Below, one piece after another: positions 642 through 29,818 of a DNA stretch of 32,000 nucleotides. How positions within the stretch are numbered: the first letter of the stretch is position 1; the number at the start of each line of letters is the position of its first letter. Made by a program: the position numbers and the translations under genes. The stretch covers positions 2,580,001 through 2,612,000 of the forward strand of contig NZ_CP042911.1 in assembly GCF_008065095.1 (NCBI RefSeq), in the 5' to 3' direction. This stretch comes from Gemmata obscuriglobus (GTDB lineage Bacteria > Planctomycetota > Planctomycetia > Gemmatales > Gemmataceae). Below the pieces are notes generated by a model. The model ran no database searches, was not told where the DNA came from, and saw nothing but the letters and a program-made list of their open reading frames with translations.

Positions 642-737
642 GGCGCGACCGCTTCCGCGGCGCGAGACTTGACGCCACCGGTCGGGCTGAAGCCGACGCC
701 ACCCCCTGCCTTCGTACCCCCACCCGACACCTCTCCC

Positions 738-16416: not shown

Positions 16417-19400
16417 TTACTTTTGTGATCGCGCGTCGAGCTTCTGCTGTAGCTCGCGGATCTGATTGTCGACCTCGTTGAACCGCTGCGGCCAGGTGCG
16501 GCTGCGGAGCTTCTTGAGTGTTCCCGTGGCGGCGGCGAACTCTTTGGCCTCGACCTGCGCCGCCCCCAGCTTCAGCAGCCCGGTGGGCTCGAGCGCACGC
16601 AGCTCGGCGACCCGCTTCCAGTGCGCGACGGCGTCGGCCCAGCGGCCCTGTCGCTCGCGCACCTCGGCCAGCCGCGCGTGCCCCTCGGACTCGTTCGGTA
16701 GAGCTTCCACGATCGACGTGTTCGCCCGCTCGGACTCGGCGGGGCGGTCCAGTTGCGCGTACCGGCGGCCGAGTTGTTCGTACAGCTTCGCGTCCCGGCG
16801 CGACACCTCGACCGCGTCCAGCAGCAGTTGCACGGCCTCGGTCTGGAGCCCGATATTGTCGAAACACGTGAGGAGCAACTCGTACGTGTTCGAGTCGGGC
16901 TGTAGCTCGGCCGCGAGTCGCAGGTGCGGGACCGCTCGCGCGTGGTCGTTCTTCTGGATGAACGCCCGGCCCACGGCCTTACGGATCACGGCGCTCTGGA
17001 GCGGCTCCCGGTCGAGCCACGCGAGGTAGCCGGCCAGGTCCGGCGCGCCGGCCAGCACCTCCACGACCGCGGTCAGTGCCCGCTCCCGCTGCTCGTGGTG
17101 CGGACCCCACGTCACCACCGCCCCGCTCGCCATATCGACGGCCTCACGGGTCTTGCCGAGCGCGGCGTAGGCGCGGGCCGCCTCGGAGTAGTACCGCGAC
17201 AACTCAGAGTCGCCGGTGCCGCGGCGGGCGGCGCCGCCCTGGCGCTTCGGGATCAGCTCCTGGTAGTAGGTGACCGCCTGCTCGAAGAGCCGGTTCTCCA
17301 GGCAACTGTACGCGACCGCCGCGAGCGCGCTCTCGGTCCACCGGTCCTTCTCGTGGAAGTGCGTGTCGGTGGCCTTGAGCAGCGCGTGCAGTTCGGCGTG
17401 GCGCCCGGTGCGGAAGTACGCGTGCATCAGCCGGGTGCGGTATGCGAGTTGGTCGGGGCGATCGGCGACCAGTGCGAGTAGCACCGGCACCGACTCCGCG
17501 AACCGCTCCCGGCGGTGCAGGTAGTCCGCCAGTTGCGAGCGGCCGGATTCGCTCAACAGCTTTTGTTCGTAAGCCGCGAGCAACACCGCGACGGCCTTCG
17601 CCTCATGCGGCAGGCCCCAGAAGAGGTACTCGGCGACGTACTCGGCCGCGGCGCCGGAGCCCTTTTGCTCCGCAAGCACCTCCTCCGCGACCCGTGCGAA
17701 CTCGTCGCCCTTGTCGGTCCAGAAGTAGCTGTACCGTTTGTCGTACCCGGTACGGCTGCGGACCGCGCGCGAACGCAGGTCGCGCCGCAGTTCGGCTAGC
17801 ACCAATTTGAGGAGGCGCGGTTCGAGATCGCCGAGCGGCTTCGCCTGCTCCCGCCACCGCGCGAGCGCGTCGCGGAACTGGCTCCAGGTGTTCTGGTCCG
17901 TGTACCGTGCCCATTCGGGTTCCTCGTCGGCGCGGTCCAGAACGAACCGGAGCGCCTCGCGCGGCCCGATCACGTCGCCGAGCGTGCCGGCGATGCTCCC
18001 GAGCGTCGAATAGTGGTTCGTGACCTGCTCGCGGAGCAGCTTCGGCAGCCGGGTGAACGCGCTCGTCCGCAGATCGTCGCTCGCCTGATCGATCTGGAGG
18101 TTGTGCGCGGTGCGGTAGAGCTGCATCAGTCGCCCGATCGTGCCGGACCGGTGGTTCTGATCCGCTTCGGTCAGTTCCGCGAGCAGCTTGGCTTCCAGCG
18201 CCCGATACAGCGTCGCGCCTTCACCCAGCGAGACGGTCCCGCGGTTGCTCAGCGCGGTCTGGTACAGGTCGAACAACTGGTTGGTGAGCCAGCGCTGCTG
18301 TTCCAAATGAACCGGGTGCTTCAGCCGGGTGCGGAGGACGCCTTCGGCCCGGTCGTAGTGCTTGGCATTGGAGTGCATCCACACGAGTGTCGCGATCGCA
18401 TCGTTCGCGGAGTTCGGCAGCACCCCACCACTGGCTTCCTCGAATTCGTCGAGCGCGGCGGAAAGAACATCGATAGCGCCCGGGGTGCGGGCATGCGCGC
18501 TAAGTGCGCTGGCGTACCGGGTCGCGATGTGGAACCGGTCGTAGGAACCCTGCGGGGCGTCGCGGTGGAGCGCTTCGAACTGCCGCAGTTGTTCCGCCGC
18601 GAGCGCCGGTTGCGGGACCGCGCCGAGGTGGGCGAGGAAGTCGGCCATGAGCCGCGGCTCACCCGCCGCCCACTCGCGTTTGAACGCCCGCTGAAGCGCC
18701 GCGAGCGCCGTCTCGGTGTGCGGTCCGGGCTGGTTGTGCAGGTCCGCGGCCCGGCGTTCCACACTCAGTTCCAGCAGATCGAGGGCGCGCTGATCGACCG
18801 GCGTTTTGGCGCTTTTGCGCACCTCGGCGAGGCGTGCGATCAGTTCGTCGGCGACGGCCTCGTCGCGCACCTCGCCCAGCACGCCGCTCATCCCCTGGAG
18901 GAACGGGTACACGCGCTCCGCGGTGTGCCCGACGACGGCGTCGGGCAGCGCCCGAAGCAGACGGAAGTCGCGCGACGCGCCGTAGAACTGCTGCAACTGT
19001 GAAAGGTAATTCTGCGGAGCGGACGACTTCGCGAACAGCACCTTGAAGATTTCAAGCACCTCGGGGGCCAGCGTGGTGGGAAGCGGGCCGCCCGAAACGC
19101 GCCACGGACCAAGGTAGGCGTTCAGCAGTGCGCTGAGCTGGTACTCGTCGGTCGTTTGGTAGACCGCGGTCCGCGCCCGGTCGGCGTCGGCGCGGCGGTT
19201 CTCGGCCGTGTACCACTCGATCAGGCTCCGGTGGGCGGAGGCGGGGAGTTCGTCGGCGCGCTCCACCGCTTCCAGTTGTCGGATCGCGTCCGCAACTTTC
19301 CCGCGTTCGGCGAGCAGGTAGCCGAGCGCGAGGCGCCAGCGGTTCTCGGACTCCGGGCCGGTGGTCCAGCGGACGAGTTCGGCTTCCAGTTCGTTCGAGC

Positions 19401-22400
19401 GGTCGAGGGCGATGTACAACCGGTACTTCTCGCCGCGCCACCGCGGCGCGTCCGGGGCGTCCGCGGTCTGCCGGTCGACGTACTTCACGAGCCGCTCGAC
19501 GAGCGCCGGGTCGGCACCCTTGCGGGCCGCGAGGTGTTCCAGCGTCACGACCGCACGCGCGTGCAGCATTTCGTCGAGCATTGCGGCGAGGTTGTTGCCC
19601 TCGGCCGGGTGCGGTGTGCGCTTCGTCACGGGCCGGGCCACGATCGCCCAGCAGTCGTCGGCCGCGGACTTGAGGTCGCGGTCGAGTTGCACGTCCAGCC
19701 ACACGCGCTCGGCGGTGATCCAGTCCGCGAACGGCTTCGGCTGCTTGGCGGCTTCCTTGCGGAGCCGGTCCGCGAAGCCCGTTCGCGCGGCCTTCCGCGC
19801 CTCTTCCTGCTTCTTGAGTAGCTCCGTGCGGGGCAATTGTTCGGGCTTCTCCACCGCCTTCATGAGCGCCCGGAAGCGGTGTTCCGTGATCACATCCGTG
19901 AGCCGGTGCAGCGCCGCAACCTTGGTGAACAGCACGCCCGCCGGCTCGTCGCCGTCGGACAACGTGTCGAGCAGGGAGAACAGCTCGTCTTCGGCGGCCG
20001 GCGTCCAGTCGCGTTCGAGGAGGGCGTCGAACAGTTGCTGGGCGTACCGGGAGCGGTACCCCTCCGCGGCGGTTTCGAGCTGGCGGCGCCGGAAGTCCAG
20101 CAACCCGCCGCCTTCGAGGGCCGTCAGCGCCCGCGCGACCTGTTGCCCGATCTGGTGCTTGCGGTGCGGTTCCTTCTCGGCCTCCCACCGCTTGCGCAGC
20201 GCCGCGGCGACGGCTTGCCACGTGGCCCCGTCGGTGTCGGCGTGGGGCAAGAGGTAATCGAGCAGGAAAGAGACCCGCGCGAGCGAGAGGGCGTCGATGC
20301 TCCTGACGAATTTCTCCGCGAACTGCTTACGCAGTGCCCGGCCGGTGTCGGTGGAGCCGAACCGCGACAAGTTCAGGATGCTGGCGACGAGGCCGAGTTG
20401 GTCGTCGCGGCGGACGAAGAACGTGGCCACTTCGGCGAGCGGGGCGTTCCACCGTTCGTCCGGCCGGTTCGTGGACAGTTCGTGGCCGCGCCCGAGTGCG
20501 AAGTTGACCGCCGCACCGAGCCGGGCCGCCACCGCGGGGGGCAACTCGCCCTCCTTCTGCGCCTCCCGCATCCATTGCGCGGTCAGGGCTTCCGCCCGTT
20601 CGGACCGGCTGCTCCACACCAGCGCCGACAGGTACCGGGCGTAAGGGCTCTCGCTTTCGGGTGACCCTTCGACCCAGGCGCCGAGGTAGTCGGCGAGGTC
20701 GCGGTACCGACCCTGCTGCCGGAGCAGATGCGCGTACTGCTCGCGGAGCGTGTACTCGTACTGCGGGTGGTCCCACTTGACTTCCGGGGCCAGCACGCGG
20801 TCGAGCCAGGCGTATGCCGCTGCGTAGTCGCCGCTGCCGGCTAGCATCTGAACGTACCGGTACTGCGCGGAGTGGTCGCGCGGGTAATCGGTCGCGATCT
20901 CCTTTGCGAGCACGCGCGCCTGATCGGCCTGGCGGGTCTCTTCGAGTAGCCCGAGGCGCCGGTTGCGCCAGCTCTTCACCGCCCCCAGGTGCGCGGGCTG
21001 CCGCTCGTAGACTTTGAGAAGCCGGTCGTTGAGTGCGAGCCGCTCGTCGGCCTGGAGCATCTGCACCGCGGTGCTGATGAGGTGTTCGGCCAGGGCGTAA
21101 TCGTTGGCCCGGGTGTCCGGGTCGTCGGTCGCGACGAGCGCCGCGGCCTCGGCGAGGAGCCGCTGGCGGAGTTCTTCGTGCCGTCGGGCGGCGAGCAGGA
21201 ACGCGTCTTTGAGCCACCGCACGCCGACCTTTCGGGGTGCGAGCTTCTCCAACTCTTGCAGGTGAGTCGCCGCGCGGTCCCACTGCTGCGTGGCCGCGAA
21301 GTGCAGCGTGAGCACGGCCCGGTCGTCGAAGGTCGCTTTCCCCTCCGCAGCCCGCTTTTTCGCGTCGGTGACCGACGGCAGCGGCGCGCGGAGGAACTGG
21401 ACCTTTGCCCGCCCTTCCAGTTCCCGGGCCAGCGCGCGGGCGAAGTCGGCGTCCGGAACTGCGGTCACCGTTTGCGTCGTCAGGGCGGTGCGGCGCTCGT
21501 CGGCGTTAAGCGTCTCCACCCGTCGCGCCCACCACTGTCCGCCGGCCTCAATGAAATCGCTGAAGCGGGTCTGGCCGGTCACTTTGTTCTTGTGCCGCGA
21601 TTCGACGCTGAGCACCACCCGGTGCTCGGTGTCGATCAGCACGCGGGTTTCGTAATCCGGGTGTTCCGGTTCCTTCAGAACCAGAAGCGCCCGGTCCTTC
21701 GCGATGGTTTCCACCGCGGGGACCATGCGCGCGTAAACGATGTGCAGCGCGGAGAGCGAGTGATCGGTCAGCCCGAGTGACGGTCGCTTCAGGTCGTTCG
21801 GGTGGGAGGGGCGGACGCTGCCGAGCTGGAACCCGGTGACGTACACGCCGCGCTCCTTTGCGTCGCACCACTCGACCGTAACCTGACCGCCGTCCGGTGC
21901 GGTGCGGGCGAGCCACGCGCCGGGCGAAACGAGTTCCGTGCCGCTGCGCCGCCCGCTCAACTCGCCGCGGGAGTCGAACGTGTCGCTCTGGCGGGTGACG
22001 ACGATCCCGCCCTTCAGTTGGGCCAGCTTGTTGGCCCGGAGCAGGCTTTGGGACAGAGCAACGACGGGTGCGGGCCAGAGCGATTTCGGTTCCTTCGGCG
22101 TGTGCGGGATGCTCGTGAGTCGCGGGAAGAGCGTGCCGACCCACGAAAGCGGTGTCGGCCGGACGCGGCGCTCGTAGCGAGAGTACGGGTTCGCATAGTA
22201 CGGCTGTGCGGCTGGTGCACGCCCCTTGAGTTCTAGGAGACCGTCCCGATCGATTGTCGTTCCAGTGGGCATGTCGAGACGGAGCCCGAGCGTCCACGCG
22301 TTGAACGGTGTGTTGGTTTCGAGGCCGTCAGTCAGTCCGTGGTCGCCTGTGATTAATAGATTCCCGCTATACAGCCCCGTTCGGCCATTTTCGCCTAGAA

Positions 22401-25356
22401 GCCTTTTGCCCAAATCTGACGCCATTTGTGAGTAATCGGTCCGTGGACTTATGTCGAAGCCGTCAAAGTAACCGAGAGGGTTTGCTTCGGCATCGTTCAG
22501 CCCACGCAGGACAGGACGTTCACGGTCTTCGAGAAACTTCAGGAAGTGAGGCTCCCTGTCCGCTTTTCCGAATTCTGCGAGTCGACTTCCGTCGGTCGTG
22601 AGGTCATCAACGGCCACCCCGAGCCCTGCGTATGAGTTCATCGAATAGCCAGGCTGATCGACTTCCGTCTGAAAAACGCCTCCCCCCAGGCCCGCCACGT
22701 CATACTGGGCGAAAGCGCGTAGGTCCGGCCGCGGGCGGTGGAACGCGTGCGCGTTTCGTCCCAGTGATTCGAGTTCCGACAGCACGCGGCGGCGCAGCGC
22801 GGTGCGGTACTCGGCCGCGAGCCGCATTTGCTTCTGGCGCAGCTCGAACGCCGCGTTGTCGCGCCCATCGGCAAAGAACCGCTCGCCGTCCCGCATCTGG
22901 AACTGGCGCTTCACCGCGAACCGCTCGCGGTCGGCGTCCGTTTCCAGCACCAGCAGCGACGTGTACGGCGTGATGATGTTGAACTCCTCGCTCAGCGCGA
23001 TCACGTCCTGCCTCACGTTCTCCGTGCGCCCCTGCTCGAGCAGCGCGTCGAGGTGCATCCGCGCCCAGAGGCGCGGGACGAACGAGTTGCCCTGCTCGGC
23101 GTCCTTGAGCGCCACCTTCGATGTGTACCGCACCGGCTTCCCGCCGAGCGTGCCGGTCACGACGATTTCTCCGCTCTGGTCTTTGCCTTCGGGTAGGTAA
23201 CGGCCGAGCAGGATTTGTTGCGTCCCGGCCGGGACGTTGGGCAGCACCTCGGGGTAGACGCGGGCGGTTCGCAACCCGCGGAACTCGACCTTCAGGTCGC
23301 GCAGCGACGGGGCCGCGATCTCCGTGAGCAGGTCGAGCGCCGTGGCCTGCGGGGGCCGGTCCGCGGACACGCGGCGCACCGATCCGCCGCCCAGGCTGCC
23401 GATCGCCTTCAGCGCCGCGGGCTCGTAAGAGCTGCCGAGCGCGACCGCGTGGAAGGTGCCGGTTTTGCCCTCGTAGAGGCGCCGCAACCGCTGGGCGAAC
23501 GCGACCGGGTCCGCGTTGCCGGTCGTGGGGACCGCGTCGCCCAGGTAAACGACGTGCGTCCCGGGCTCGGTCATCTTGAGCGCCGACGCGAACGCCTGAT
23601 CGAGGTCGGTCCACCCGAGCGCCGACCGCTTCTCCAGGAACTGTTGGACCGCGGCGACGTTCGCGGGCGCGGCCGGCACCGGCTTTTCAAACACCCATTC
23701 GCAGCCCACGTCGCACGCGGCGACGTTAACCGTGTCTTTCGGGGTCAGCGCGCCCAGCAGGGCATTCAGAAGGGCGGTCTGGTTCGCGCGCTGGGATTTG
23801 TCCATCGACGCGGAGGTGTCCGCGACGACCAGCAACCGGATCGGCGTGCCTCCGGGAACGAGGGGCCGCTCCCAGTCGGCCGCGGCGCCCGGCGGCGTGA
23901 GCTGCACCATGAAGTACCCGTCGTCGCCGCGGCGGTGCGGCACCACGACCACGTCGGGGCGCCCCGGCTCGACTTCCACCACCGCCTCGAAGTCACGGGT
24001 CGGGGTGTACTCCTGTGCGGCGAATTCGACGCGGCCCGAGTGCTCGGTCGTGCGGACGCGGGCCGGGTGCGTGGGCGAACTTACGCCCTTGAGCGGGGCG
24101 GCGGAGTTGACCGTCACGTCGATCTTGAGTTCGCGCAGCGGGTGCTGCTTCAGCAACTCGCTCTGAAGGGCGTAGCTGTACCGGTAGCGGTTCCCCTGGA
24201 GCGGGAGCACCTGCGTGTAGGTGATCTTGATGCGCTTCTCGGAGCGGCCCGGGATGGGGTACACGCGCGCCTTGAAGATGTTCCCGCCGGCCCACTCCAA
24301 CAGGCCCGGGTCCCGCTTCTCGCGGAGGATCTCTTCGTAGATCTCGCGCGCCCGCTGCTTCTCCACCACATCGGCCTCGACGAGCTTGTCACCGATCCAC
24401 ATGCCGAACCCCGAGATCGAGGCATCCTGCGGCAGTGGGAAGTGGAACACGCCCTCCAGAACGTCCCCGGTGGTGTTGACGAACGATTCCTCAATGGTCG
24501 TCCGCGCGATCTGGTCGCGGATGTCCACGGTGACGTGGTGATACCCGACCGTGAGCGGCACGTTGCGGCCGTCGACCTTGGCGATCAGCGAGCCGACGGA
24601 CTCGGTCGTTGCGGTGCCCCGGAACCCTTGCAGCCAGCGCGGCTCGTGTTCGGTGCGAACGAGCTTCTCCTTTTCGATCCGGAAGAGCTGCCGGGACTTT
24701 ACGGTGACCGTTTGCTTGTCGGGACCGGTTAGTTCCACCGGCGCGGCCTCGGTCGCGCTGACCTCAAGTTCGCCATTGAGGAGGTGGATTTTGTTGGTCG
24801 TGACGAGTTCGACGAGTGAGTGCGGCCCGACGACCAGTTGCGCCGACTTCAGCAACTTCACCGCTGCGGCGTTGGCGCCGCGGGCGTCGGTGCGGACCCA
24901 GTCGCCGGGTTTGAGCATCAGGCCCGCCTGAACCGGCGACCAGCGCTCGGCCTGCACCGGCTTCACCGCGACGACGCCCTGGGCGTCGGCCACCTTGCCG
25001 ATGCGCCCGTCGTCGGTCAGTTTGTCCTCAAAAACGAACTTCTGTTCCCGGGGCGGCGGTTCGGGCGCGGGCTGCTGGGTCGCGATCCAGTACGCGGTGA
25101 CCAGGCCGGCGACCAGCACCGCGGCGGCGGCGGTGGCGATCCAGCGAAGGGAGAACATGGTTTTGGGCTTCGGTTGGTGGTGTGTTGCGGGGGCGGCCGG
25201 TCCGGCCGCCTCGAACGCGGCGCACGATCGCGCGCGCAGTCGGTCCAGGAACGCGCGGTCCACTTCGGGAGCGTCCTTTGCGGTCGCGCCGAGCAGGTCG
25301 GCGAGCGGGTCGTCGGTCGGCCGGGGTTCGGGTTCGTTCACGGTACGCCTCCGCAT
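16417..25356 (-). CDS. Giant (2,979 aa) single-pass membrane protein: short cytoplasmic N-terminus, TM, FecR-like domain, VIT domain, vWA domain (intact MIDAS), about 2,000-aa helical/TPR-like repeat region; putative anti-sigma/sensor
   Basis: Uninterrupted ORF, with ATG 25356 (MRRRTVNEPEP...) chosen as start. TM WIATAAAAVLVAGLVTAYWIA at about nt 25081-25143. FecR-like GVVAVKPVQAERWSPVQAGLMLKPGDWVRTDARGANAAAVKL at about 24664-25002. VIT-like VTVDIRDQIARTTIEESFVNTTGDVLEGVFHFPLPQDASISGFGMWIGDK at about 24184-24570. vWA with DTSAS MIDAS at 23806-23820 (domain about 23359-23844). The C-terminal third has clear TPR-like repeats (AVTYYQELI..., ARAYAALGKTREAVDM..., AELQPDSNTYELLLTCF...). Confidence 0.85.
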   Translation of the reverse strand: MRRRTVNEPEPRPTDDPLADLLGATAKDAPEVDRAFLDRLRARSCAAFEAAGPAAPATHHQPKPKTMFSLRWIATAAAAVLVAGLVTAYWIATQQPAPEPPPREQKFVFEDKLTDDGRIGKVADAQGVVAVKPVQAERWSPVQAGLMLKPGDWVRTDARGANAAAVKLLKSAQLVVGPHSLVELVTTNKIHLLNGELEVSATEAAPVELTGPDKQTVTVKSRQLFRIEKEKLVRTEHEPRWLQGFRGTATTESVGSLIAKVDGRNVPLTVGYHHVTVDIRDQIARTTIEESFVNTTGDVLEGVFHFPLPQDASISGFGMWIGDKLVEADVVEKQRAREIYEEILREKRDPGLLEWAGGNIFKARVYPIPGRSEKRIKITYTQVLPLQGNRYRYSYALQSELLKQHPLRELKIDVTVNSAAPLKGVSSPTHPARVRTTEHSGRVEFAAQEYTPTRDFEAVVEVEPGRPDVVVVPHRRGDDGYFMVQLTPPGAAADWERPLVPGGTPIRLLVVADTSASMDKSQRANQTALLNALLGALTPKDTVNVAACDVGCEWVFEKPVPAAPANVAAVQQFLEKRSALGWTDLDQAFASALKMTEPGTHVVYLGDAVPTTGNADPVAFAQRLRRLYEGKTGTFHAVALGSSYEPAALKAIGSLGGGSVRRVSADRPPQATALDLLTEIAAPSLRDLKVEFRGLRTARVYPEVLPNVPAGTQQILLGRYLPEGKDQSGEIVVTGTLGGKPVRYTSKVALKDAEQGNSFVPRLWARMHLDALLEQGRTENVRQDVIALSEEFNIITPYTSLLVLETDADRERFAVKRQFQMRDGERFFADGRDNAAFELRQKQMRLAAEYRTALRRRVLSELESLGRNAHAFHRPRPDLRAFAQYDVAGLGGGVFQTEVDQPGYSMNSYAGLGVAVDDLTTDGSRLAEFGKADREPHFLKFLEDRERPVLRGLNDAEANPLGYFDGFDISPRTDYSQMASDLGKRLLGENGRTGLYSGNLLITGDHGLTDGLETNTPFNAWTLGLRLDMPTGTTIDRDGLLELKGRAPAAQPYYANPYSRYERRVRPTPLSWVGTLFPRLTSIPHTPKEPKSLWPAPVVALSQSLLRANKLAQLKGGIVVTRQSDTFDSRGELSGRRSGTELVSPGAWLARTAPDGGQVTVEWCDAKERGVYVTGFQLGSVRPSHPNDLKRPSLGLTDHSLSALHIVYARMVPAVETIAKDRALLVLKEPEHPDYETRVLIDTEHRVVLSVESRHKNKVTGQTRFSDFIEAGGQWWARRVETLNADERRTALTTQTVTAVPDADFARALARELEGRAKVQFLRAPLPSVTDAKKRAAEGKATFDDRAVLTLHFAATQQWDRAATHLQELEKLAPRKVGVRWLKDAFLLAARRHEELRQRLLAEAAALVATDDPDTRANDYALAEHLISTAVQMLQADERLALNDRLLKVYERQPAHLGAVKSWRNRRLGLLEETRQADQARVLAKEIATDYPRDHSAQYRYVQMLAGSGDYAAAYAWLDRVLAPEVKWDHPQYEYTLREQYAHLLRQQGRYRDLADYLGAWVEGSPESESPYARYLSALVWSSRSERAEALTAQWMREAQKEGELPPAVAARLGAAVNFALGRGHELSTNRPDERWNAPLAEVATFFVRRDDQLGLVASILNLSRFGSTDTGRALRKQFAEKFVRSIDALSLARVSFLLDYLLPHADTDGATWQAVAAALRKRWEAEKEPHRKHQIGQQVARALTALEGGGLLDFRRRQLETAAEGYRSRYAQQLFDALLERDWTPAAEDELFSLLDTLSDGDEPAGVLFTKVAALHRLTDVITEHRFRALMKAVEKPEQLPRTELLKKQEEARKAARTGFADRLRKEAAKQPKPFADWITAERVWLDVQLDRDLKSAADDCWAIVARPVTKRTPHPAEGNNLAAMLDEMLHARAVVTLEHLAARKGADPALVERLVKYVDRQTADAPDAPRWRGEKYRLYIALDRSNELEAELVRWTTGPESENRWRLALGYLLAERGKVADAIRQLEAVERADELPASAHRSLIEWYTAENRRADADRARTAVYQTTDEYQLSALLNAYLGPWRVSGGPLPTTLAPEVLEIFKVLFAKSSAPQNYLSQLQQFYGASRDFRLLRALPDAVVGHTAERVYPFLQGMSGVLGEVRDEAVADELIARLAEVRKSAKTPVDQRALDLLELSVERRAADLHNQPGPHTETALAALQRAFKREWAAGEPRLMADFLAHLGAVPQPALAAEQLRQFEALHRDAPQGSYDRFHIATRYASALSAHARTPGAIDVLSAALDEFEEASGGVLPNSANDAIATLVWMHSNAKHYDRAEGVLRTRLKHPVHLEQQRWLTNQLFDLYQTALSNRGTVSLGEGATLYRALEAKLLAELTEADQNHRSGTIGRLMQLYRTAHNLQIDQASDDLRTSAFTRLPKLLREQVTNHYSTLGSIAGTLGDVIGPREALRFVLDRADEEPEWARYTDQNTWSQFRDALARWREQAKPLGDLEPRLLKLVLAELRRDLRSRAVRSRTGYDKRYSYFWTDKGDEFARVAEEVLAEQKGSGAAAEYVAEYLFWGLPHEAKAVAVLLAAYEQKLLSESGRSQLADYLHRRERFAESVPVLLALVADRPDQLAYRTRLMHAYFRTGRHAELHALLKATDTHFHEKDRWTESALAAVAYSCLENRLFEQAVTYYQELIPKRQGGAARRGTGDSELSRYYSEAARAYAALGKTREAVDMASGAVVTWGPHHEQRERALTAVVEVLAGAPDLAGYLAWLDREPLQSAVIRKAVGRAFIQKNDHARAVPHLRLAAELQPDSNTYELLLTCFDNIGLQTEAVQLLLDAVEVSRRDAKLYEQLGRRYAQLDRPAESERANTSIVEALPNESEGHARLAEVRERQGRWADAVAHWKRVAELRALEPTGLLKLGAAQVEAKEFAAATGTLKKLRSRTWPQRFNEVDNQIRELQQKLDARSQK

Positions 25357-25961
25357 TGCGGTTCGGCGTCGGTCGAGCTGTGGGAGAGCCGCAGGAAGGC
25401 GGTTCGGAACGCCTCCCGCGCGCGGGCCAGCTTCGAGCGCACGGCCGTTTCGGTCGTCTGGTTGCGGGCGGCGAGCTGTTCGACGGCCACCCCGTCGAGG
25501 TACTTGTCGGTCAGGAGCGTCCCGTACTCGTCGGGGAGTTCCGCGAGTACGAGCCGGACGAGGGCGATCGTTTCGCCGGTTTCGAGCAGGTCCGGGGGCG
25601 GGTCTTCGGACCCGTCGAGCCAGCGGGCGAGGCGGTCGCGGTGCGGTGCGAGCCACCCGTCGGCGCTTTTGAACCGGTCCTGGCGCTTCAGCTTGCGGAA
25701 GTGCAACGCCACCTGGAGCCGGGCGATGCCGCACAACCAGTGCCAGAGCGGCCCGCACGCCGGGTCGTAGGTCCGGGCCGAGCGGGCGGCGGCGAGCATG
25801 GTCTCCTGGACCACGTCGGCGACATCGGCCGAGGAGGGGCCGACGAGTCGCGCGACGAGGCACCAGACGCGCTCCGCGAACGCGTCGTACAGCGCCCGCC
25901 AGGCGTCCGGCCGCCCGTCGCGGAGACCGCGGGCGACCTCGCGCGCGAGGTGTTCGTCCAT
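25338..25961 (-). CDS. ECF-type RNA polymerase sigma factor
   Basis: 207 aa from ATG 25961 (MDEHLAREVARGLRDGRPDAWRALYDAFAERVW...). Region 2 (ADVADVVQETMLAA, YDPACGPLWHWLCGIARL) and region 4 (LPDEYGTLLTDKYLDGVAVEQLAARNQTTETAVRSKLARAREAF). The stop codon overlaps the start of the giant gene by 19 nt. Confidence 0.85.
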   Translation of the reverse strand: MDEHLAREVARGLRDGRPDAWRALYDAFAERVWCLVARLVGPSSADVADVVQETMLAAARSARTYDPACGPLWHWLCGIARLQVALHFRKLKRQDRFKSADGWLAPHRDRLARWLDGSEDPPPDLLETGETIALVRLVLAELPDEYGTLLTDKYLDGVAVEQLAARNQTTETAVRSKLARAREAFRTAFLRLSHSSTDAEPQCGGVP

Positions 25962-26091
25962 AAAGCCGGGTGTCCGCGGGGCTTCCGGTTCGCGCGAGCC
26001 CGCCACCGCACTCGCGTTGGCCCGGGCCGACGCTATCCTATTTGCGCCGAGGGGCGGGAATGTGTCGCGGAATTTGTGGGACTGTGCCCCT

Positions 26092-26138: not shown

Positions 26139-26933
26139 ATGGATCGCGTCGAAGCGGCGGCCGAGTACCTGTTCGAGTTGCGCGATCACCGGCGCCGGGT
26201 CGCGGCGCTGCCGCCGGAGATCGCCCCGCGCACGCTCGCCGAGGGGTACGCGGTTCAGGACGTACTGGTGCAGAAGCTGATGGACCGGTTCGGGAGCCGG
26301 CCCATCGGGTACAAGATCGCGTGTACCAGTCCGCTCGCGCAGCAGGCGCTCGCGGTGGACGCGCCGTTCTTCGGGGTGATGCTGACGCACTCGTCGCACC
26401 CGTCCCCGGCGATTCGCCCCGGGGCAGAGTTCACCGTTCGTTGTGCGGAGGCCGAGTTCGGTTTCGAGATGGCGGCGGACGTGCCCGGCGGCGTGGCGTA
26501 CACCGCCGAGAGCGTGAAGCCGTTCGTCGGCGCGGTGCTCCCTTCGCTGGAGATCGTCGATCACCGTTATCACGACTGGAAAACCGTGGACGCGGCGTCG
26601 CTGCTCGCGGACAACGCCATTCACGGAGCATGGGTGTTCGGCGAGCCGGTCCGGGACGGGTGGCGCGACCTCGACCTCGCCGCGCACGCCACGGCGCTGA
26701 TCGTGAACGGAACGACGGTTTTACCGGGCTCGGGCGCGGCGGTGCTGGGGAACCCGTTGAACGTGGTGGCGTGGCTGGCGAACGAACTGCCCAAGTTCGG
26801 CCGCAAGTTGAGCAAGGGCGACCGTATCACCACCGGCCTCACGACTGCCGTTTACCTGGCCGAACCGGGGGACCGCCTCGAAGCCGACTTCGGGGCGCTT
26901 GGGCGCGTGGCACTCACGCTGAGCGGGGACTGA
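26139..26933 (+). CDS. 2-keto-4-pentenoate hydratase / 2-oxohepta-3-ene-1,7-dioate hydratase family enzyme
   Basis: 264 aa starting at MDRVEAAAEYL. Family pattern GYKIACTSPLAQQALAVDAPFFGVM, EAEFGFEM, NPLNVVAWLAN, GDRITTG. The upstream part of the ORF-track entry (25182-26138) is Arg/Gly-rich non-coding read-through. Confidence 0.82.
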   Translation: MDRVEAAAEYLFELRDHRRRVAALPPEIAPRTLAEGYAVQDVLVQKLMDRFGSRPIGYKIACTSPLAQQALAVDAPFFGVMLTHSSHPSPAIRPGAEFTVRCAEAEFGFEMAADVPGGVAYTAESVKPFVGAVLPSLEIVDHRYHDWKTVDAASLLADNAIHGAWVFGEPVRDGWRDLDLAAHATALIVNGTTVLPGSGAAVLGNPLNVVAWLANELPKFGRKLSKGDRITTGLTTAVYLAEPGDRLEADFGALGRVALTLSGD

Positions 26934-27211: not shown

Positions 27212-28831
27212 TCACTCCAGGTCCATGCGCCACCACGCGAGCGCCGTGAACGCGGCGCCGAACGCGCACAGCACCCCGCACGCGGTCAGCACGACGGTGA
27301 TGTTCGGTTCCGGAACGGTGAGGAGCTGGTTGTAGGCGTCGAGCGCCCACGCGTGCGGGGTGACGAGGCTCGCGGTCTTCATTTGTTCGGGCATCAGGTC
27401 GCGCGGCATCAGCGACCCGCTCACCCCGCCCAGAACCAGCACGAGTAACGTCCCGTACACGGCCACCTGCGTTTCGGTCCGCGCGACGCTCGCCACGAGC
27501 ACCGCCAGACCGACCGCCGCGAACGACGTGCTCGCCACCAGGGGCAGCAGCAACTCGGGCCGGTGCCCCCACGTCATCCCGAAAATGACCCGCCCCGCGA
27601 TCAGCAAAAACGCGCCCTGCAACAGCGACACGACGAGGCACGGGAGCAGCTTCCCGAGCAAGATCTCACCGCGCGTGAGTGGAGCCGCCCGCAGCCGCAT
27701 TAGCGTCCCGTGCTTCCGCTCCGCGACGAACAGCCAGCCCACGCTCAGTACCAGGAAGAACGCGAACATCACCGTGTAGGACGGCACCAGGAACTGGTAC
27801 CGCAGCGCGCCGCGGCTCAGCGGGCCGCTCCCGGCCGCGTCGCGGTACTCGTCGCGGTTCGCCGTGTTGCCTTCGCGGGCCTCGCTCTTGACCAGATCGG
27901 TCCAGCGCGAGGCCTCGAAGTTGTAATCGGAGAACAGGTCGCCCACGCCCGTCTTCACGGTCGGCCCGATCTCCTTGCGGACGGCCGGGGTGAGCACCTT
28001 ACCGAACAGCACCTTCTTCCCGACCCGGCGCGCGATCTCGGGGTCTTTGAGCGCGACGTCAACAACCGCGCGGAAGCCGGGCATCTGGCCCTTGATCACC
28101 TGAGCCGGCAGGCGCCCGAACTTGTCCGTCATAAGCTTCTGAAACTTCTCGTCCGCGACCAGGGCGTCGAGCACGTCGAGCACCACCGGGTCGAGTTCCT
28201 CAATCACCTTGGGCGGCACGGTGCTCGTGCTCAGCCGCTCGGCGACCAGCTCCATGAACTTCTCGTCGCCGACCCGCTGGAACGCCTTCCCGATCATCCA
28301 CGGGATCACCACGCGGAGCAGCGTGACCTGCGTGACCTGCTCGATGACGGACGCCGACACCGGCTGCGTCGGGTCGCGCAGGAGGGCGGCCCCGAGCTTG
28401 TCCATACGCACCCCGTCGCGGCCGAACGGGTTGACCGCCCCGCCCTGGTTCAGGAACGAGCAGCGGTGCATCCGTGCGCTGAAGTCCTCCTCGAACACCA
28501 GCACCGCCGCCCGCCGGTTCTTCGCGATCAGTTTCTCGGCCGAGGCGCGGTCGGAAATGATTTCGAGCCGGATGTCCTGGGTGGCGCTGAGGTCGTCGAT
28601 CACCACCTCCGACCACGGCTTTTCGGGGAAGGGCGCCTGCTCGGGTAACCCGCGGTCGAGGTTGACGATCGAGACGCGCAGCCGCTCGTCGGGCTTCTCG
28701 CCGAACCCCTCGCCGAGCGCGAGGCCCAGGACGAGGATGAGCACCAGCGGGGTGACGAACAGGATGACCGCGCTCCGCGCGTCGCGCAGGAGCAGGCGCA
28801 GGTCTTTGGCCGCAATAGTAAGAATGGGCAT
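27212..28831 (-). CDS. ABC-2 type transporter permease with large extracytoplasmic loop
   Basis: 539 aa. N-terminal TM (AVILFVTPLVLILVLGLAL), an approximately 330-aa soluble loop, then 5 C-terminal TM helices typical of YhhJ/YbhS-like ABC-2 permeases. It starts 3 nt after the ATPase gene. Confidence 0.85.
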   Translation of the reverse strand: MPILTIAAKDLRLLLRDARSAVILFVTPLVLILVLGLALGEGFGEKPDERLRVSIVNLDRGLPEQAPFPEKPWSEVVIDDLSATQDIRLEIISDRASAEKLIAKNRRAAVLVFEEDFSARMHRCSFLNQGGAVNPFGRDGVRMDKLGAALLRDPTQPVSASVIEQVTQVTLLRVVIPWMIGKAFQRVGDEKFMELVAERLSTSTVPPKVIEELDPVVLDVLDALVADEKFQKLMTDKFGRLPAQVIKGQMPGFRAVVDVALKDPEIARRVGKKVLFGKVLTPAVRKEIGPTVKTGVGDLFSDYNFEASRWTDLVKSEAREGNTANRDEYRDAAGSGPLSRGALRYQFLVPSYTVMFAFFLVLSVGWLFVAERKHGTLMRLRAAPLTRGEILLGKLLPCLVVSLLQGAFLLIAGRVIFGMTWGHRPELLLPLVASTSFAAVGLAVLVASVARTETQVAVYGTLLVLVLGGVSGSLMPRDLMPEQMKTASLVTPHAWALDAYNQLLTVPEPNITVVLTACGVLCAFGAAFTALAWWRMDLE

Positions 28832-28834
28832 CGG

Positions 28835-29818
28835 CTAATCTCTCAGCCCGCGGCCGGTGAGGTGCAGGAACACGCGCTCCAAGGTCGGTTCGGTGGTGGC
28901 GGCGCTGAGAAGCGCCACCCTGCGGGCCGCGCACTCGGACGCGACCCGCGCCAGCGCCGGGCCGATTTCGTCTACCACGAGCACGAAGGTAGAGTGCCCA
29001 CCTTCGCCCCCCCTCACTGGCACGGAAGGCGTGGTGGGCGGATTGCTTTCCTGCACCCGTTTCACGCTCGGGATCGCACCTAGCACCTGCGCGAAATCGG
29101 CTGTGGCACCCGCCACGGTCATGTGGATCGTGGCGTCCAGGCGCTTGAGCAGGTTCGGCAGGGTGTCGCTGGCCCGCAGGCGCCCGGCGTCGATGATCGC
29201 GATGCGGTTACACAGCGCCTGCACTTCTTCCATGTAGTGGCTGGTGTAGATCACCGTGAGCCCGGCGGCGTTGAGCGCCTTAACCTGCTCGAAGATGTGG
29301 TTCCGGCTCTGCGGGTCCACGCCCGTCGTCGGCTCGTCGAGGATCAGAAGCTTCGGGTCGTGGACCACCGCGACCGCGAGGTTCAGCCGCCGTTTCATGC
29401 CACCCGAGAAGGTGCCGGCGCGGTCGCCGGCGCGGTCGGTGAGGCCGACAGCCGCTAACACCGCGTCCACCCGCGCCGTCAGGTGCCGGCCCGATAACCC
29501 GTATAGCTTTCCGAAGAAGCGCAGGTTCTCGCGCGCGGTCAGGTCCGGATAAATCGCCAGGTCTTGCGTGCCGATCCCAACGAGGTGCCGGAGGTCGCGC
29601 GACTCGTGTGTGAACACGTTTCCGAACAGTTCCACCCGGCCCGAGTCGGAACGGGCCAGCCCGGCCGCGATCGAGAGCAGGGTGGTTTTCCCGGCCCCGT
29701 TCGGGCCGAGGAGCCCGAACACCTCGCCCTTGCGAACGGTCAGCGAAACGCCGTCGAGCGCGATCAGGCCACCGTACCGCTTGCGCAGGTTCGCGATTTC
29801 GAGCACCGGTTCGCCCAT
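28835..29818 (-). CDS. ABC transporter ATP-binding protein
   Basis: Walker A GPNGAGKTT, Q-loop, signature FSGGMKRRL, Walker B LLILDEP and H-loop TSHYMEE, plus an approximately 90-aa C-terminal extension. Confidence 0.93.
   Translation of the reverse strand: MGEPVLEIANLRKRYGGLIALDGVSLTVRKGEVFGLLGPNGAGKTTLLSIAAGLARSDSGRVELFGNVFTHESRDLRHLVGIGTQDLAIYPDLTARENLRFFGKLYGLSGRHLTARVDAVLAAVGLTDRAGDRAGTFSGGMKRRLNLAVAVVHDPKLLILDEPTTGVDPQSRNHIFEQVKALNAAGLTVIYTSHYMEEVQALCNRIAIIDAGRLRASDTLPNLLKRLDATIHMTVAGATADFAQVLGAIPSVKRVQESNPPTTPSVPVRGGEGGHSTFVLVVDEIGPALARVASECAARRVALLSAATTEPTLERVFLHLTGRGLRD

What the first reader, a model, noticed from the sequence alone, without database searches (positions are those of the whole stretch)
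16417..25961. ECF sigma factor translationally overlapped with a 2,979-aa FecR-VIT-vWA-helical-solenoid membrane protein: candidate giant anti-sigma/sensor system
What the sequence shows:
- An ECF sigma gene (25338-25961, minus strand) ends 19 nt inside the start of one uninterrupted 8.9-kb ORF.
- The ORF product has about 70 cytoplasmic residues (no HxxxCxxC motif), one TM helix, and a FecR-like periplasmic domain.
- Next come a VIT domain and a vWA domain with a complete MIDAS (DTSAS plus downstream T and D).
- These are followed by about 500 aa of unassigned sequence and about 1,800 aa of helical/TPR-like repeats.

Established knowledge: FecR-type anti-sigma factors are normally about 300 aa. 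VIT-vWA modules are metal-dependent ligand-binding or adhesion modules.

Inference: this is an ECF signalling pair in which the sensor is an extracytoplasmic ligand-capture module (VIT-vWA) attached to a very large scaffold. I do not recognise this architecture as a characterised anti-sigma class.
Basis: partly seen in the sequence, partly recalled or inferred. Interest (0 to 1): 0.8.

Follow-up and report, generated by a model that had tools for sequence, protein, structure and literature searches.

The report
ECF sigma with giant periplasmic anti-sigma
A small alternative sigma factor gene in Gemmata obscuriglobus is translationally coupled to a ~2,975-residue membrane-anchored periplasmic protein, and this uncharacterised two-gene unit is conserved across planctomycetes in a way that points to a giant, unconventional anti-sigma factor or envelope sensor.

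Summary
The window is Gemmata obscuriglobus.

**What is there**
- A 207-aa ECF sigma gene (25338-25961, minus strand) overlaps an intact 8.9-kb ORF.
- Pfam confirms VIT, a vWA domain with an invariant MIDAS, and C-terminal TPRs.

- The start supported by homologues is GTG 25341. That gives a 4-nt GTGA overlap and 2,974 aa, not ATG 25356.
- Pfam FecR is not recovered. Only a weak fold resemblance to FecR/PupR periplasmic domains is seen.
- The "unassigned 500 aa" is a ~200-aa hypervariable linker followed by a confidently modelled LolA/RseB-fold domain.

**New evidence**
- At least 403 species genomes encode a full-length relative.
- The sigma gene lies directly upstream in 49 of 57 informative loci, usually with start/stop overlap.
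- The six relatives without a sigma gene also lack the ~60-aa cytoplasmic N-terminus (Fisher p = 8e-7).
- Sigma and N-terminus co-diverge (partial Mantel r = 0.50).
- A bipartite motif, GCGACACAT-N12-GCGCAAAT, occurs once per locus, always just upstream of sigma.

**Verdict**
This is most likely an autoregulated ECF sigma/anti-sigma operon. Its anti-sigma is a giant periplasmic envelope sensor or scaffold with a non-canonical two-helix sigma-binding segment. It is a new variant of a known kind. The signal and the regulon are unknown.

The parts
26040..26068 (-). Bipartite promoter-like motif GCGACACAT-N12-GCGCAAAT, 78 nt upstream of the sigma ATG. Candidate autoregulated ECF promoter.
   Evidence: It is the only match in the window even with 3 mismatches allowed. 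The same motif occurs once per locus, always on the coding strand just upstream of sigma, in the window and 33 related loci. There is no other hit in the related loci on either strand. No sigma-70-type promoter is found in this intergenic region.
25338..25961 (-). [quoted passage not shown]
   Evidence: Pfam Sigma70_r2 and Sigma70_r4_2. NCBIfam TIGR02937 is above its cut-off, while all subfamily models are below theirs. Orthologues lie directly upstream of the giant gene in 49 loci and in Telmatocola by independent gene calls.
16417..25341 (-). The stop is at 16417-16419.
   Evidence: Intact ORF. It is 100% identical to the public G. obscuriglobus protein P0001 of 2,974 aa. Start-codon choice comes from the orthologue alignment and the GTGA overlap.
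25189..25341 (-). Cytoplasmic N-terminal segment (residues 6-56). Two predicted helices carry the conserved signature DE..A.LL....AP.PD..FL.RLR..S..AF. Putative sigma-binding (anti-sigma) module.
   Evidence: AlphaFold helices at 16-27 and 34-51. Conserved across orthologues. Present only where a sigma gene, or a remnant of one, is present. Co-diverges with sigma. No match to known anti-sigma domains.
25081..25155 (-). Single transmembrane helix (residues ~68-92), preceded by basic residues (N-in topology).
   Evidence: Hydropathy scan of the public protein and homologues. AlphaFold helix at 73-93. Basic residues precede it in the window (KPK) and more strongly in orthologues (RKR/RRRR).
24637..25014 (-). 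Juxtamembrane beta-rich periplasmic domain (residues ~115-240) with a weakly FecR-like fold.
   Evidence: AlphaFold block-mean pLDDT about 83-97. Foldseek: 5ix9 cell-surface anchoring domain E 6e-4; PupR signalling domain prob 0.98, E 0.23; BDI_1681 putative anti-sigma factor. Pfam FecR and the PDB profile search were negative.
24217..24540 (-). VIT domain (residues 273-380), the most conserved part of the protein.
   Evidence: Pfam PF08487, 2e-30. 80-91% mean identity to 119 homologues.
23380..23838 (-). vWA domain (residues 507-659) with a complete MIDAS. DTSAS lies at 23806-23820. T583 and D607 complete the site.
   Evidence: Pfam VWA_3, 3e-13. MIDAS residues are invariant in 16 diverse homologues. 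The PDB profile hits the ITIH4 vWA region.
22747..23379 (-). Conserved post-vWA region (residues 660-870), of the kind that follows VIT-vWA in ITIH-type and sortase-target proteins.
   Evidence: NCBIfam TIGR03788 aligns over 402-812 (5e-58, below the family cut-off). The ITIH4 profile match extends past the vWA domain. 56-82% identity to homologues.
22132..22746 (-). Hypervariable linker, probably disordered (residues 871-1075).
   Evidence: 4-10% identity and 31-52% alignment occupancy across 119 homologues over residues 871-1050, rising at the 1051-1075 boundary. Both sides are at 45-80%.
21397..22074 (-). LolA/LolB/RseB-fold domain (residues ~1095-1320). Candidate acyl-chain or lipid-binding module.
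   Evidence: AlphaFold model of residues 1060-1420 has pLDDT 91. Foldseek finds 54 PDB matches at E<=1e-3, nearly all LolA, LolB, RseB or MucB; the best is 8e-10. No sequence-level hit in Pfam or PDB.
16420..21396 (-). C-terminal ~1,650-aa region, helical where modelled, with scattered TPR-like units. Canonical TPRs lie at residues ~2716-2960 (16477-17211).
   Evidence: Helices from residue ~1302 onward in the model. Pfam TPR_19 at 1475-1533 and TPR_2/TPR_11 at 2891-2935. NCBIfam MamA/PrsT-like TPR. PDB consensus-TPR and OGT hits fall only at the extreme C-terminus. Internal similarity is weak. 40-70% identity to homologues along its length.

Best explanation
This is an autoregulated two-gene ECF sigma/anti-sigma operon, conserved across planctomycete lineages.

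**Proposed mechanism**
- The sigma factor is made together with the giant protein by translational coupling.
- It is held at the cytoplasmic membrane by the giant protein's short two-helix N-terminal segment.
- One membrane-spanning helix follows. About 2,890 residues then lie in the periplasm.
- In order, the periplasmic parts are: a beta domain with weak FecR-like fold; a VIT-vWA module with a metal-ion-dependent adhesion site; a variable linker; a LolA/RseB-fold domain; and a long helical/TPR region.
- A change in the envelope, sensed by one or more of these modules, releases the sigma factor. The most likely route is proteolysis or a conformational change of the anchor.
- The closest analogy is RseB sensing lipidic intermediates in the sigma-E system. 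The free sigma then transcribes from GCGACACAT-N12-GCGCAAAT promoters, including its own.

**Shown:** gene structure, domain content, conservation, coupling, co-occurrence and co-divergence of sigma with the N-terminus, and the conserved upstream motif.

**Inferred:** physical sigma binding, the sign of regulation (inhibitory rather than activating), the release mechanism, the signal, and any regulon beyond the operon.
For: - **Sigma identity:**
- **Tight operon:** start and stop codons overlap in 34 of 49 loci, 19 of them with the ATGA/GTGA form. In the window the overlap is GTGA. Independent gene calls in Telmatocola show the same overlap.
- **Synteny:** sigma lies immediately upstream, on the same strand, in 49 of 57 loci with enough upstream DNA. 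By record names these include Gemmata, Zavarzinella, Thermoguttaceae, Pirellulales, Schlesneria, Thalassoglobus and Planctomicrobium. No other neighbouring gene is conserved.
- **Co-occurrence:** all six relatives that start with a signal peptide or anchor and lack the ~60-aa N-terminus also lack sigma and the motif. No locus has sigma without a cytoplasmic N-terminus (Fisher p = 7.7e-7).
- **Co-divergence:** the two loci with a divergent sigma have a divergent N-terminus. Partial Mantel r(sigma, N-terminus | VIT-vWA body) = 0.50, p <= 0.0005.
- **Topology:** a long basic n-region, one transmembrane helix and extracytoplasmic-type domains.
- **Promoter:** the motif occurs once per locus, only upstream of sigma. 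Among 120 metagenomic exact matches, the only recurring downstream gene is this sigma.
- **Sensor-type modules:** a LolA/RseB fold and an invariant MIDAS.
- **Selection on the whole protein:** 45-60% identity over ~3,000 aa across lineages, and 480 clusters at 50% identity with the same layout.
Against: - The N-terminus matches no known anti-sigma domain by sequence. It has only two predicted helices, whereas class I domains have four. Binding was not modelled or measured.
- The periplasmic body exists without sigma in some lineages and paralogues. It therefore has a function of its own that need not be sensing.
- Two related MAGs keep the N-terminus but have only a ~50-aa sigma remnant upstream.
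- The motif is unlike textbook ECF promoters (my recollection: AAC in the -35, CGT in the -10). It could be another regulator's site.
- No regulon member other than the operon was found.
- The Mantel and Fisher tests are not fully corrected for phylogeny.
- FecR-type partners can act as activators, so 'anti' is an assumption.
Confidence: 0.6

Rival explanations
1. The giant protein is primarily a structural periplasmic component, such as a tether, spacer or assembly platform of the planctomycete envelope. On this view the sigma/N-terminus pairing is only a dosage feedback. Free sigma signals a shortage of the protein and drives the operon until enough anchor is made. No external signal is sensed.
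For: - The body occurs without sigma in other lineages and in paralogues.
- Its layout is rigid, and conservation along ~3,000 aa is very high, which is more typical of structural or machine proteins.
- The only promoter-motif copy found is that of the operon itself.
- A long helical/TPR region and an adhesion-type VIT-vWA module suit a scaffold.
Against: - Only ~20 kb per genome was scanned, so a wider regulon is not excluded.
- LolA/RseB-fold and MIDAS modules are ligand-binding modules.
- ECF pairs that have been studied generally respond to signals (PMC8103513).
Confidence: 0.22
2. The two genes are merely co-transcribed, and the N-terminal segment does not bind the sigma factor. It could be a membrane-insertion or localisation signal. 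The sigma would then be controlled by something else.
For: - There is no sequence similarity to any anti-sigma domain.
- Only two short helices are predicted.
- Two MAGs keep the N-terminus without an intact sigma gene next to it.
Against: - The N-terminus and sigma are strictly lost together.
- They co-diverge beyond the divergence of the protein body.
- Start/stop coupling favours 1:1 synthesis.
Confidence: 0.08
3. This is a FecR-type cell-surface signalling system. The juxtamembrane beta domain would contact an outer-membrane TonB-dependent transducer, and the giant protein would act as a sigma regulator (activator) as FecR does.
For: - Weak Foldseek similarity of residues 120-235 to the PupR signalling domain and to a Bacteroidales FecR-family anti-sigma factor.
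- The layout is single-pass with N-in topology.
Against: - Pfam FecR is not detected.
- No TonB-dependent receptor or any other gene is conserved next to the pair.
- The N-terminus is ~50 aa with two helices and is unrelated in sequence to known anti-sigma domains.
- The sigma falls below every subfamily cut-off in NCBIfam.
Confidence: 0.05

Closest known systems
RpoE-RseA-RseB envelope-stress system (E. coli) and AlgU-MucA-MucB (Pseudomonas)
   Same: - An ECF sigma is co-transcribed with a single-pass N-in anti-sigma factor.
- A LolA-fold periplasmic module (RseB/MucB) gates release of sigma in response to lipidic signals (PMC8103513). RseB and MucB structures are among the Foldseek matches of residues 1095-1320.
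- The operon appears to be autoregulated.
   Different: - Here the LolA-fold module is part of the same polypeptide, ~1,000 residues from the membrane.
- No RseA-type domains were detected.
- The anti-sigma segment has two helices and matches no known domain.
- The protein is about 14 times larger than RseA (my recollection of its size) and adds VIT-vWA and ~1,650 aa of helical repeats.
- No protease genes are linked.
FecI-FecR / PupI-PupR cell-surface signalling regulators
   Same: - Single-pass inner-membrane sigma regulator.
- The first periplasmic domain has a beta-rich fold. The PupR C-terminal domain is the second Foldseek hit.
   Different: - It fails the Pfam FecR model.
- No conserved TonB-dependent transducer is present.
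- The N-terminal domain is much shorter and unrelated in sequence.
- About 2,600 additional periplasmic residues follow.
ECF289-type pairs, whose putative anti-sigma factor carries a von Willebrand A domain fused to DUF3520 (Casas-Pastor et al. 2021, PMC7826278)
   Same: It is a precedent for a vWA domain in the extracytoplasmic part of a predicted ECF anti-sigma factor.
   Different: - The domain set differs. DUF3520 was not among the Pfam hits here. VIT, the LolA-fold domain and the giant helical region are present instead.
- I could not classify this sigma against the ECF Hub groups. The group descriptions (supplementary text) were not available.
CnrH-CnrY and EcfG-NepR (class II anti-sigma domains)
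   Same: The sigma-binding segment is short and helical rather than the four-helix class I domain (PMC8103513). Here two helices are predicted.
   Different: There is no detectable sequence relationship, and the complex geometry is untested. This is a resemblance in size only.
VIT-vWA proteins: inter-alpha-trypsin inhibitor heavy chains and the marine proteobacterial sortase target protein (TIGR03788)
   Same: VIT, a vWA domain with MIDAS, and the conserved post-vWA region align over residues ~270-830.
   Different: - The score is far below the TIGR03788 family cut-off (197 vs 552 bits).
- Here the module is embedded in a membrane-anchored, sigma-coupled giant protein rather than being a secreted or sortase-anchored protein.

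Membership tests
ECF (group IV) sigma-70 factors | [quoted passage not shown] | tested here: met
   Sigma70_r2 and Sigma70_r4_2 are the only Pfam hits. The protein is 207 aa. TIGR02937 scores 53.5 bits against a cut-off of 42.9.
ECF (group IV) sigma-70 factors | Membership of a named ECF subgroup. | tested here: not met
   The best NCBIfam subfamily models (TIGR02989 at 68 bits, TIGR02984 at 55 bits) are well below their cut-offs of 125 and 184. ECF Hub models were not available.
ECF (group IV) sigma-70 factors | Autoregulated group-specific bipartite promoter. | tested here: inconclusive
   The conserved motif GCGACACAT-N12-GCGCAAAT is found only upstream of sigma. No transcription start or sigma dependence has been measured.
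Membrane-bound anti-sigma factors (functional class) | Encoded next to, and co-transcribed with, its sigma factor. | tested here: met
   Overlapping stop and start codons; conserved in 49 loci.
Membrane-bound anti-sigma factors (functional class) | Cytoplasmic N-terminal segment, one transmembrane helix, extracytoplasmic C-terminus. | tested here: met
   The N-terminus is present only where sigma is present.
Membrane-bound anti-sigma factors (functional class) | Direct binding and inhibition of the sigma factor. | not testable with these tools
   Only indirect support is available: co-occurrence and co-divergence.
Class I anti-sigma domain (ASDI; zf-HC2/RskA/RseA_N type) | Four-helix domain of ~80-90 aa recognised by family HMMs, often with HxxxCxxC. 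| tested here: not met
   No Pfam hit at E<=5. The best NCBIfam 'antisigma' model scores 16 bits against a cut-off of 100. Two helices are predicted. There is no HxxxCxxC.
FecR-family sigma regulators | Periplasmic FecR domain (PF04773). | tested here: not met
   Not found at E<=5. The fold resemblance is weak.
FecR-family sigma regulators | Linked TonB-dependent transducer. | tested here: not met
   No neighbouring gene is conserved. None is present in the window or in the Telmatocola locus.
VIT-vWA module (ITIH-like) | VIT domain followed by a vWA domain with DxSxS...T...D MIDAS. | tested here: met
   PF08487 at 2e-30 and PF13768 at 3e-13. D513, S515, S517, T583 and D607 are invariant.
Marine proteobacterial sortase target protein (TIGR03788) | Score above the equivalog cut-off. 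| tested here: not met
   197 bits against a cut-off of 552.
LolA/LolB/RseB superfamily | Open beta-barrel fold with a helical plug. | tested here: met
   Model pLDDT 91. Foldseek probability is 1.00 to many LolA, LolB, RseB and MucB structures; the best E-value is 8e-10.
LolA/LolB/RseB superfamily | Family HMM match, or binding of acyl chains. | tested here: not met
   The window protein has no Pfam or PDB sequence hit in this region. Lipid binding cannot be tested with these tools.
TPR repeat proteins | Tandem 34-residue TPR motifs. | tested here: met
   This holds for the last ~250 residues (TPR_2 and TPR_11 above or near cut-off; consensus-TPR PDB hits). For residues 1321-2700 the result is inconclusive.

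The most novel reading that the evidence does not exclude
The pair may be the core envelope-integrity sensor of planctomycetes, using a new class of two-helix anti-sigma domain. On this reading the giant protein is a ~300-kDa inner-membrane-anchored periplasmic 'probe'. It combines a built-in RseB-like lipid sensor, a metal-dependent adhesion site and a long solenoid that reaches across their unusually wide periplasm. It would report the state, or the distance, of the outer layers to transcription.
Probability: 0.15. Interest if true: 0.85.

Novelty: new variant of a known kind. Interest (0 to 1): 0.6.

Why it matters
- **Unstudied biology.** Planctomycetes have an unusual, much-debated cell envelope and very large numbers of ECF sigma factors, and I found none that has been studied experimentally (my knowledge).
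- **Scale of conservation.** This pair is one of the few ECF units conserved across the group, with at least 403 species genomes. Its partner is a ~3,000-residue periplasmic protein kept at 45-60% identity across lineages, which implies an important function.
- **Directly testable.** The analysis yields a defined sigma, a short candidate binding segment, a precise candidate promoter for reporter fusions, and natural sigma-less variants for comparison.
- **Wider relevance.** If the two-helix N-terminus binds sigma, it would add a new anti-sigma domain type. The fusion of a LolA/RseB-fold module into the anti-sigma chain would show an alternative wiring of the sigma-E logic.

Tried and rejected
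- **FecR by sequence.** Pfam at E<=5 and a PDB profile search for the juxtamembrane domain gave nothing significant. The best PDB hit was MtxA at E 0.3.
- **Mid domain by sequence.** A PDB profile search gave no hit. Only the structure model revealed the LolA fold.
- **N-terminus against known anti-sigma domains.** Pfam on 39 orthologous N-termini and a PDB profile search gave nothing.
- **N-terminal module in other proteins.** A search with alignment A6 returned only 4 short fragments and not even the known orthologues. This is uninformative, not negative.
- **Conserved neighbours.** tblastn of all other window ORFs against 80 loci found none. ABC-transporter and kinase hits were sporadic and at varying positions.
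- **Regulon.** A PWM scan of the window and all related loci, plus one metagenome scan of the degenerate motif, was run. 8 of 107 usable metagenome hits precede the sigma orthologue. The remainder look like chance matches with no recurring gene family. No further regulon member was identified.
- **Internal repeats in the helical region.** hhalign between four blocks gave only weak similarity (probability <= 40%).
- **Literature.** No paper describes this pair. Jogler 2012 and Wiegand 2020 are not held in the library. The supplementary group descriptions of the ECF reclassification are not held either, so the ECF Hub group could not be assigned.
- **Promoter and terminator scans.** No sigma-70-type promoter upstream of sigma, and no convincing terminator after the giant gene.
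- **Not examined.** The PADLOC defence and phage libraries were not searched.

Full report
**Numbering.** Subtract 5 for the public 2,974-aa protein.

**1. Is it there?**

Yes. The window has about 68% G+C. The giant product is 100% identical to a Gemmata obscuriglobus 'VIT domain-containing protein' of 2,974 aa (P0001).

On the minus strand an uninterrupted reading frame runs from the stop at 16417-16419 up to 25356. Immediately upstream lies a 207-aa gene at 25338-25961. Its only Pfam hits are Sigma70_r2 and Sigma70_r4_2. It passes the NCBIfam ECF superfamily model but none of the subfamily models.

The junction reads ...CCGTGAACGAA.... The sigma stop codon TGA (25338-25340) is embedded in GTGA, and GTG 25341 is in the giant frame. 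Orthologues start MN.P[DE] exactly at this position, and the public annotation uses it. The likely overlap is therefore 4 nt (GTGA), not 19 nt. Either start leaves a cytoplasmic N-terminus.

**2. Anatomy of the giant protein**

*Cytoplasmic segment.* Residues 6-~62 are cytoplasmic. AlphaFold, run with 39 homologues, predicts two helices at 16-27 and 34-51. They carry a signature conserved across orthologues: DE..A.LL....AP.PD..FL.RLR..S..AF. There is no HxxxCxxC.

*Membrane anchor.* A basic stretch and one hydrophobic helix (about 68-92) follow. The rest of the protein should therefore be periplasmic.

*Juxtamembrane beta domain.* Residues ~115-240 form a beta-rich domain, modelled with block-mean pLDDT of about 83-97.
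- Pfam FecR is not detected even at E<=5.
- A 54-sequence profile finds nothing significant in the PDB.
- Foldseek gives a small 'cell surface anchoring domain' (5ix9, E 6e-4). It then gives the PupR C-terminal cell-surface signalling domain (prob 0.98, E 0.23) and a Parabacteroides putative anti-sigma factor.
- 'FecR-like' therefore survives only as a weak fold resemblance.

*VIT-vWA module.* VIT (273-380, 2e-30) and VWA_3 (507-659, 3e-13) are solid.
- The MIDAS residues D513, S515, S517, T583 and D607 are invariant in 16 diverse full-length homologues.
- The module, with its conserved post-vWA region, aligns to the marine sortase-target family TIGR03788 and to ITIH4. It scores far below the family cut-off.

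*Linker.* Residues 871-1075 are hypervariable. Over 871-1050, identity to 119 homologues is 4-10% with low alignment occupancy. This is probably a disordered linker.

Residues ~1095-1320 were modelled at pLDDT 91. They adopt the LolA/LolB/RseB fold, with 54 PDB matches at E<=1e-3, nearly all LolA, LolB, RseB or MucB. The best is 8e-10.

*C-terminal region.* From about residue 1302 the model is helical.
- TPR-type HMMs hit patchily (for example 1475-1533).
- Canonical TPRs are clear only at about 2716-2960.
- Internal similarity between blocks is weak.
- A continuous solenoid is plausible but was not modelled beyond residue 1420.

**3. Comparative evidence**

*Size and shape of the family.*
- More than 900 proteins match the whole protein. 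The best 120 are almost all 2,900-3,300 aa, at 45-91% identity.
- A scan of one genome per species finds relatives in at least 403 species.
- An exhaustive HMMER search with residues 1075-2274 finds 480 clusters (at 50% identity) at E<=1e-30. The query region sits at the same relative position in the full-length members.
- Conservation is unusually high for so large a protein. It is 80-91% in VIT and 40-70% elsewhere, apart from the linker.

*The sigma gene travels with it.*
- In 80 retrieved loci, an orthologue of the window sigma lies immediately upstream on the same strand wherever the giant gene has the cytoplasmic N-terminus.
- That is 49 of 57 loci with enough upstream DNA. By record names they include Gemmata, Zavarzinella, Thermoguttaceae, Pirellulales, Schlesneria, Thalassoglobus and Planctomicrobium.
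- Independent gene calls in cultured Telmatocola sphagniphila show a 206-aa sigma overlapping a 2,935-aa gene by 14 nt.
- In 34 of 49 loci, stop and start overlap by 1-17 nt. Nineteen of these use the ATGA/GTGA form.
- No other neighbouring gene is conserved.

*Sigma-less relatives.*
- Six relatives have no sigma gene and no motif: L018, L028, L031, L057, L063 and L077. Several come from MAGs labelled Verrucomicrobia or from other bins. One is a Thermoguttaceae locus (L063) that looks like a second, sigma-less type; another Thermoguttaceae MAG carries two copies.
- In all six the protein starts directly with a signal peptide or membrane anchor, without the ~60-aa N-terminus.
- The resulting 2x2 table (49/2/0/6) gives Fisher p = 7.7e-7, not corrected for phylogeny.

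*Co-divergence.*
- Two loci with a strongly divergent sigma (L032, L070) also have a divergent N-terminus.
- Across 29 loci, sigma and N-terminus distances correlate beyond what the VIT-vWA body predicts (partial Mantel r = 0.50, p <= 0.0005).

*Exceptions and variants.*
- Two related MAGs (L003, L027) keep the N-terminus but have only a ~50-aa sigma-4 remnant upstream.
- Most non-Gemmataceae orthologues carry an extra ~160-aa domain between the membrane helix and the beta domain. It has a weak LolA signature (Pfam LolA E 0.0018 in P0064). The window protein lacks it.

**4. Candidate promoter**

A search for bipartite words upstream of the sigma genes, refined with a PWM, recovers GCGACACAT-N12-GCGCAAAT.
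- The window carries a perfect copy at 26040-26068 (minus strand), 78 nt upstream of the sigma ATG. It is the only match in 32 kb even with three mismatches allowed.
- Scanning all 80 loci on both strands gives one site in each of 33 loci at PWM >= 18 (the shuffled maximum is 13.8). Every site lies on the coding strand just upstream of sigma, and there are none elsewhere.
- The two conserved blocks are not palindromic. They are spaced like -35 and -10 elements, for example GACACA-N16-CAAAT.
- No sigma-70-type promoter is found in this intergenic region.
Most are chance matches in unrelated DNA. Eight of the 107 with enough downstream sequence are followed by this sigma, and it is the only recurring downstream gene.
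- I read the motif as the autoregulated promoter of the operon. A wider regulon could be neither found nor excluded.

**5. How it most likely works**

The gene order, coupling, topology, co-loss and co-divergence together make the anti-sigma (or sigma-regulator) relationship likely. I put that relationship alone at about 0.8.

The two-helix N-terminus matches no Pfam, NCBIfam or PDB anti-sigma domain. It is therefore not a class I domain. In size it recalls the short class II domains of CnrY and NepR (PMC8103513). That is a resemblance, not a test.

The nature of the signal is inference. The LolA/RseB fold suggests recognition of acyl chains or lipidic intermediates, as RseB does in the sigma-E system (PMC8103513). 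The invariant MIDAS suggests metal-dependent capture of an acidic ligand. The long helical region suggests a platform or spacer in the wide planctomycete periplasm.

The main rival is that the protein is chiefly structural and the sigma pairing merely sets its dosage (0.22). Sigma-less relatives and the lack of other motif sites are compatible with that view. A FecR-type cell-surface signalling reading is weak, because FecR is not detected and no TonB-dependent partner is conserved.

**6. Relation to known systems and novelty**

It works like a membrane-bound ECF anti-sigma system. The RpoE-RseA-RseB logic is closest, with the RseB-like module fused into the anti-sigma chain. Predicted anti-sigma factors containing a vWA domain have a precedent in ECF289 (PMC7826278).

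It is not a member of the class I anti-sigma, FecR, RseA or TIGR03788 families by their defining models. I found no publication on this pair, and public names are generic ('VIT domain-containing protein'). It may already sit in an ECF Hub group with a context note, but I could not check that.

I rate it a new variant of a known kind. It is of moderate to high interest because of its conservation across planctomycetes, its size, and the experimental handles it now offers.

Noticed in passing
L003:5770-6010 and L027:5853-6013: Two related planctomycete MAGs keep the giant gene with its N-terminal segment. Upstream, only a ~50-aa remnant of the sigma C-terminus (sigma-4) remains, directly after an unrelated 316-aa gene. 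L003 still has a recognisable copy of the promoter-like motif. This looks like lineage-specific loss of the sigma-2 part rather than an assembly error, because both MAGs share it.
   Followed up: partly
L063 (Thermoguttaceae MAG); L007 and L071 (same MAG, DATKZH01): One Thermoguttaceae MAG (DATKZH01) carries two copies. One copy (L071) has sigma and the N-terminus; the other (L007) is cut at its 5' end, so its type is unknown. In a different Thermoguttaceae MAG, L063 starts at the membrane helix, has no sigma, and sits next to Fe-S oxidoreductase-like genes.
   Followed up: partly
Homologues P0035, P0064, P0092 etc., residues ~90-260; absent from the window protein: Most non-Gemmataceae orthologues have an extra ~160-aa domain between the membrane helix and the beta domain. 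Its consensus is VLEN..A.TLHL...W...G.Y.IA...W.VDEKAN, with a weak Pfam LolA hit (E 0.0018). These proteins would therefore carry two LolA-like modules.
   Followed up: partly
window 26014-26033: An 8-bp G+C-rich hairpin lies between the promoter-like motif and the sigma start codon, in the predicted 5' leader of the sigma mRNA. The terminator scan flagged it on the opposite strand. Its significance is unknown.
   Followed up: no
window 669-4286 (+): A 1,205-aa Ser/Thr protein kinase is fused to WD40 beta-propellers.
   Followed up: no
window 27212-29818 (-); L201:1400-3187: An ABC-2 permease and ABC ATPase pair lies a few kb upstream of the sigma gene in Gemmata. A similar pair lies near the sigma gene in Telmatocola, on the opposite strand. 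It recurs only sporadically and at varying positions in other loci, so this is probably coincidence.
   Followed up: partly
L072:5102-5245: In one Pirellulaceae MAG, sigma and the giant gene are separated by a ~130-nt insert. It contains three tandem copies of GTAGCCACGCTCGCGCAGA.
   Followed up: no
L018, L028, L031, L057, L077: Sigma-less relatives begin with signal peptides. L028 has a lipobox-like LAAC, suggesting a lipoprotein form. Several of these come from MAGs labelled Verrucomicrobia or Myxococcales. The labels may reflect mis-binning and were not checked.
   Followed up: no
window 26350-26933 (+): A fumarylacetoacetate-hydrolase-family gene is transcribed divergently from the sigma gene. 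The promoter-like motif lies in the shared intergenic region.
   Followed up: no
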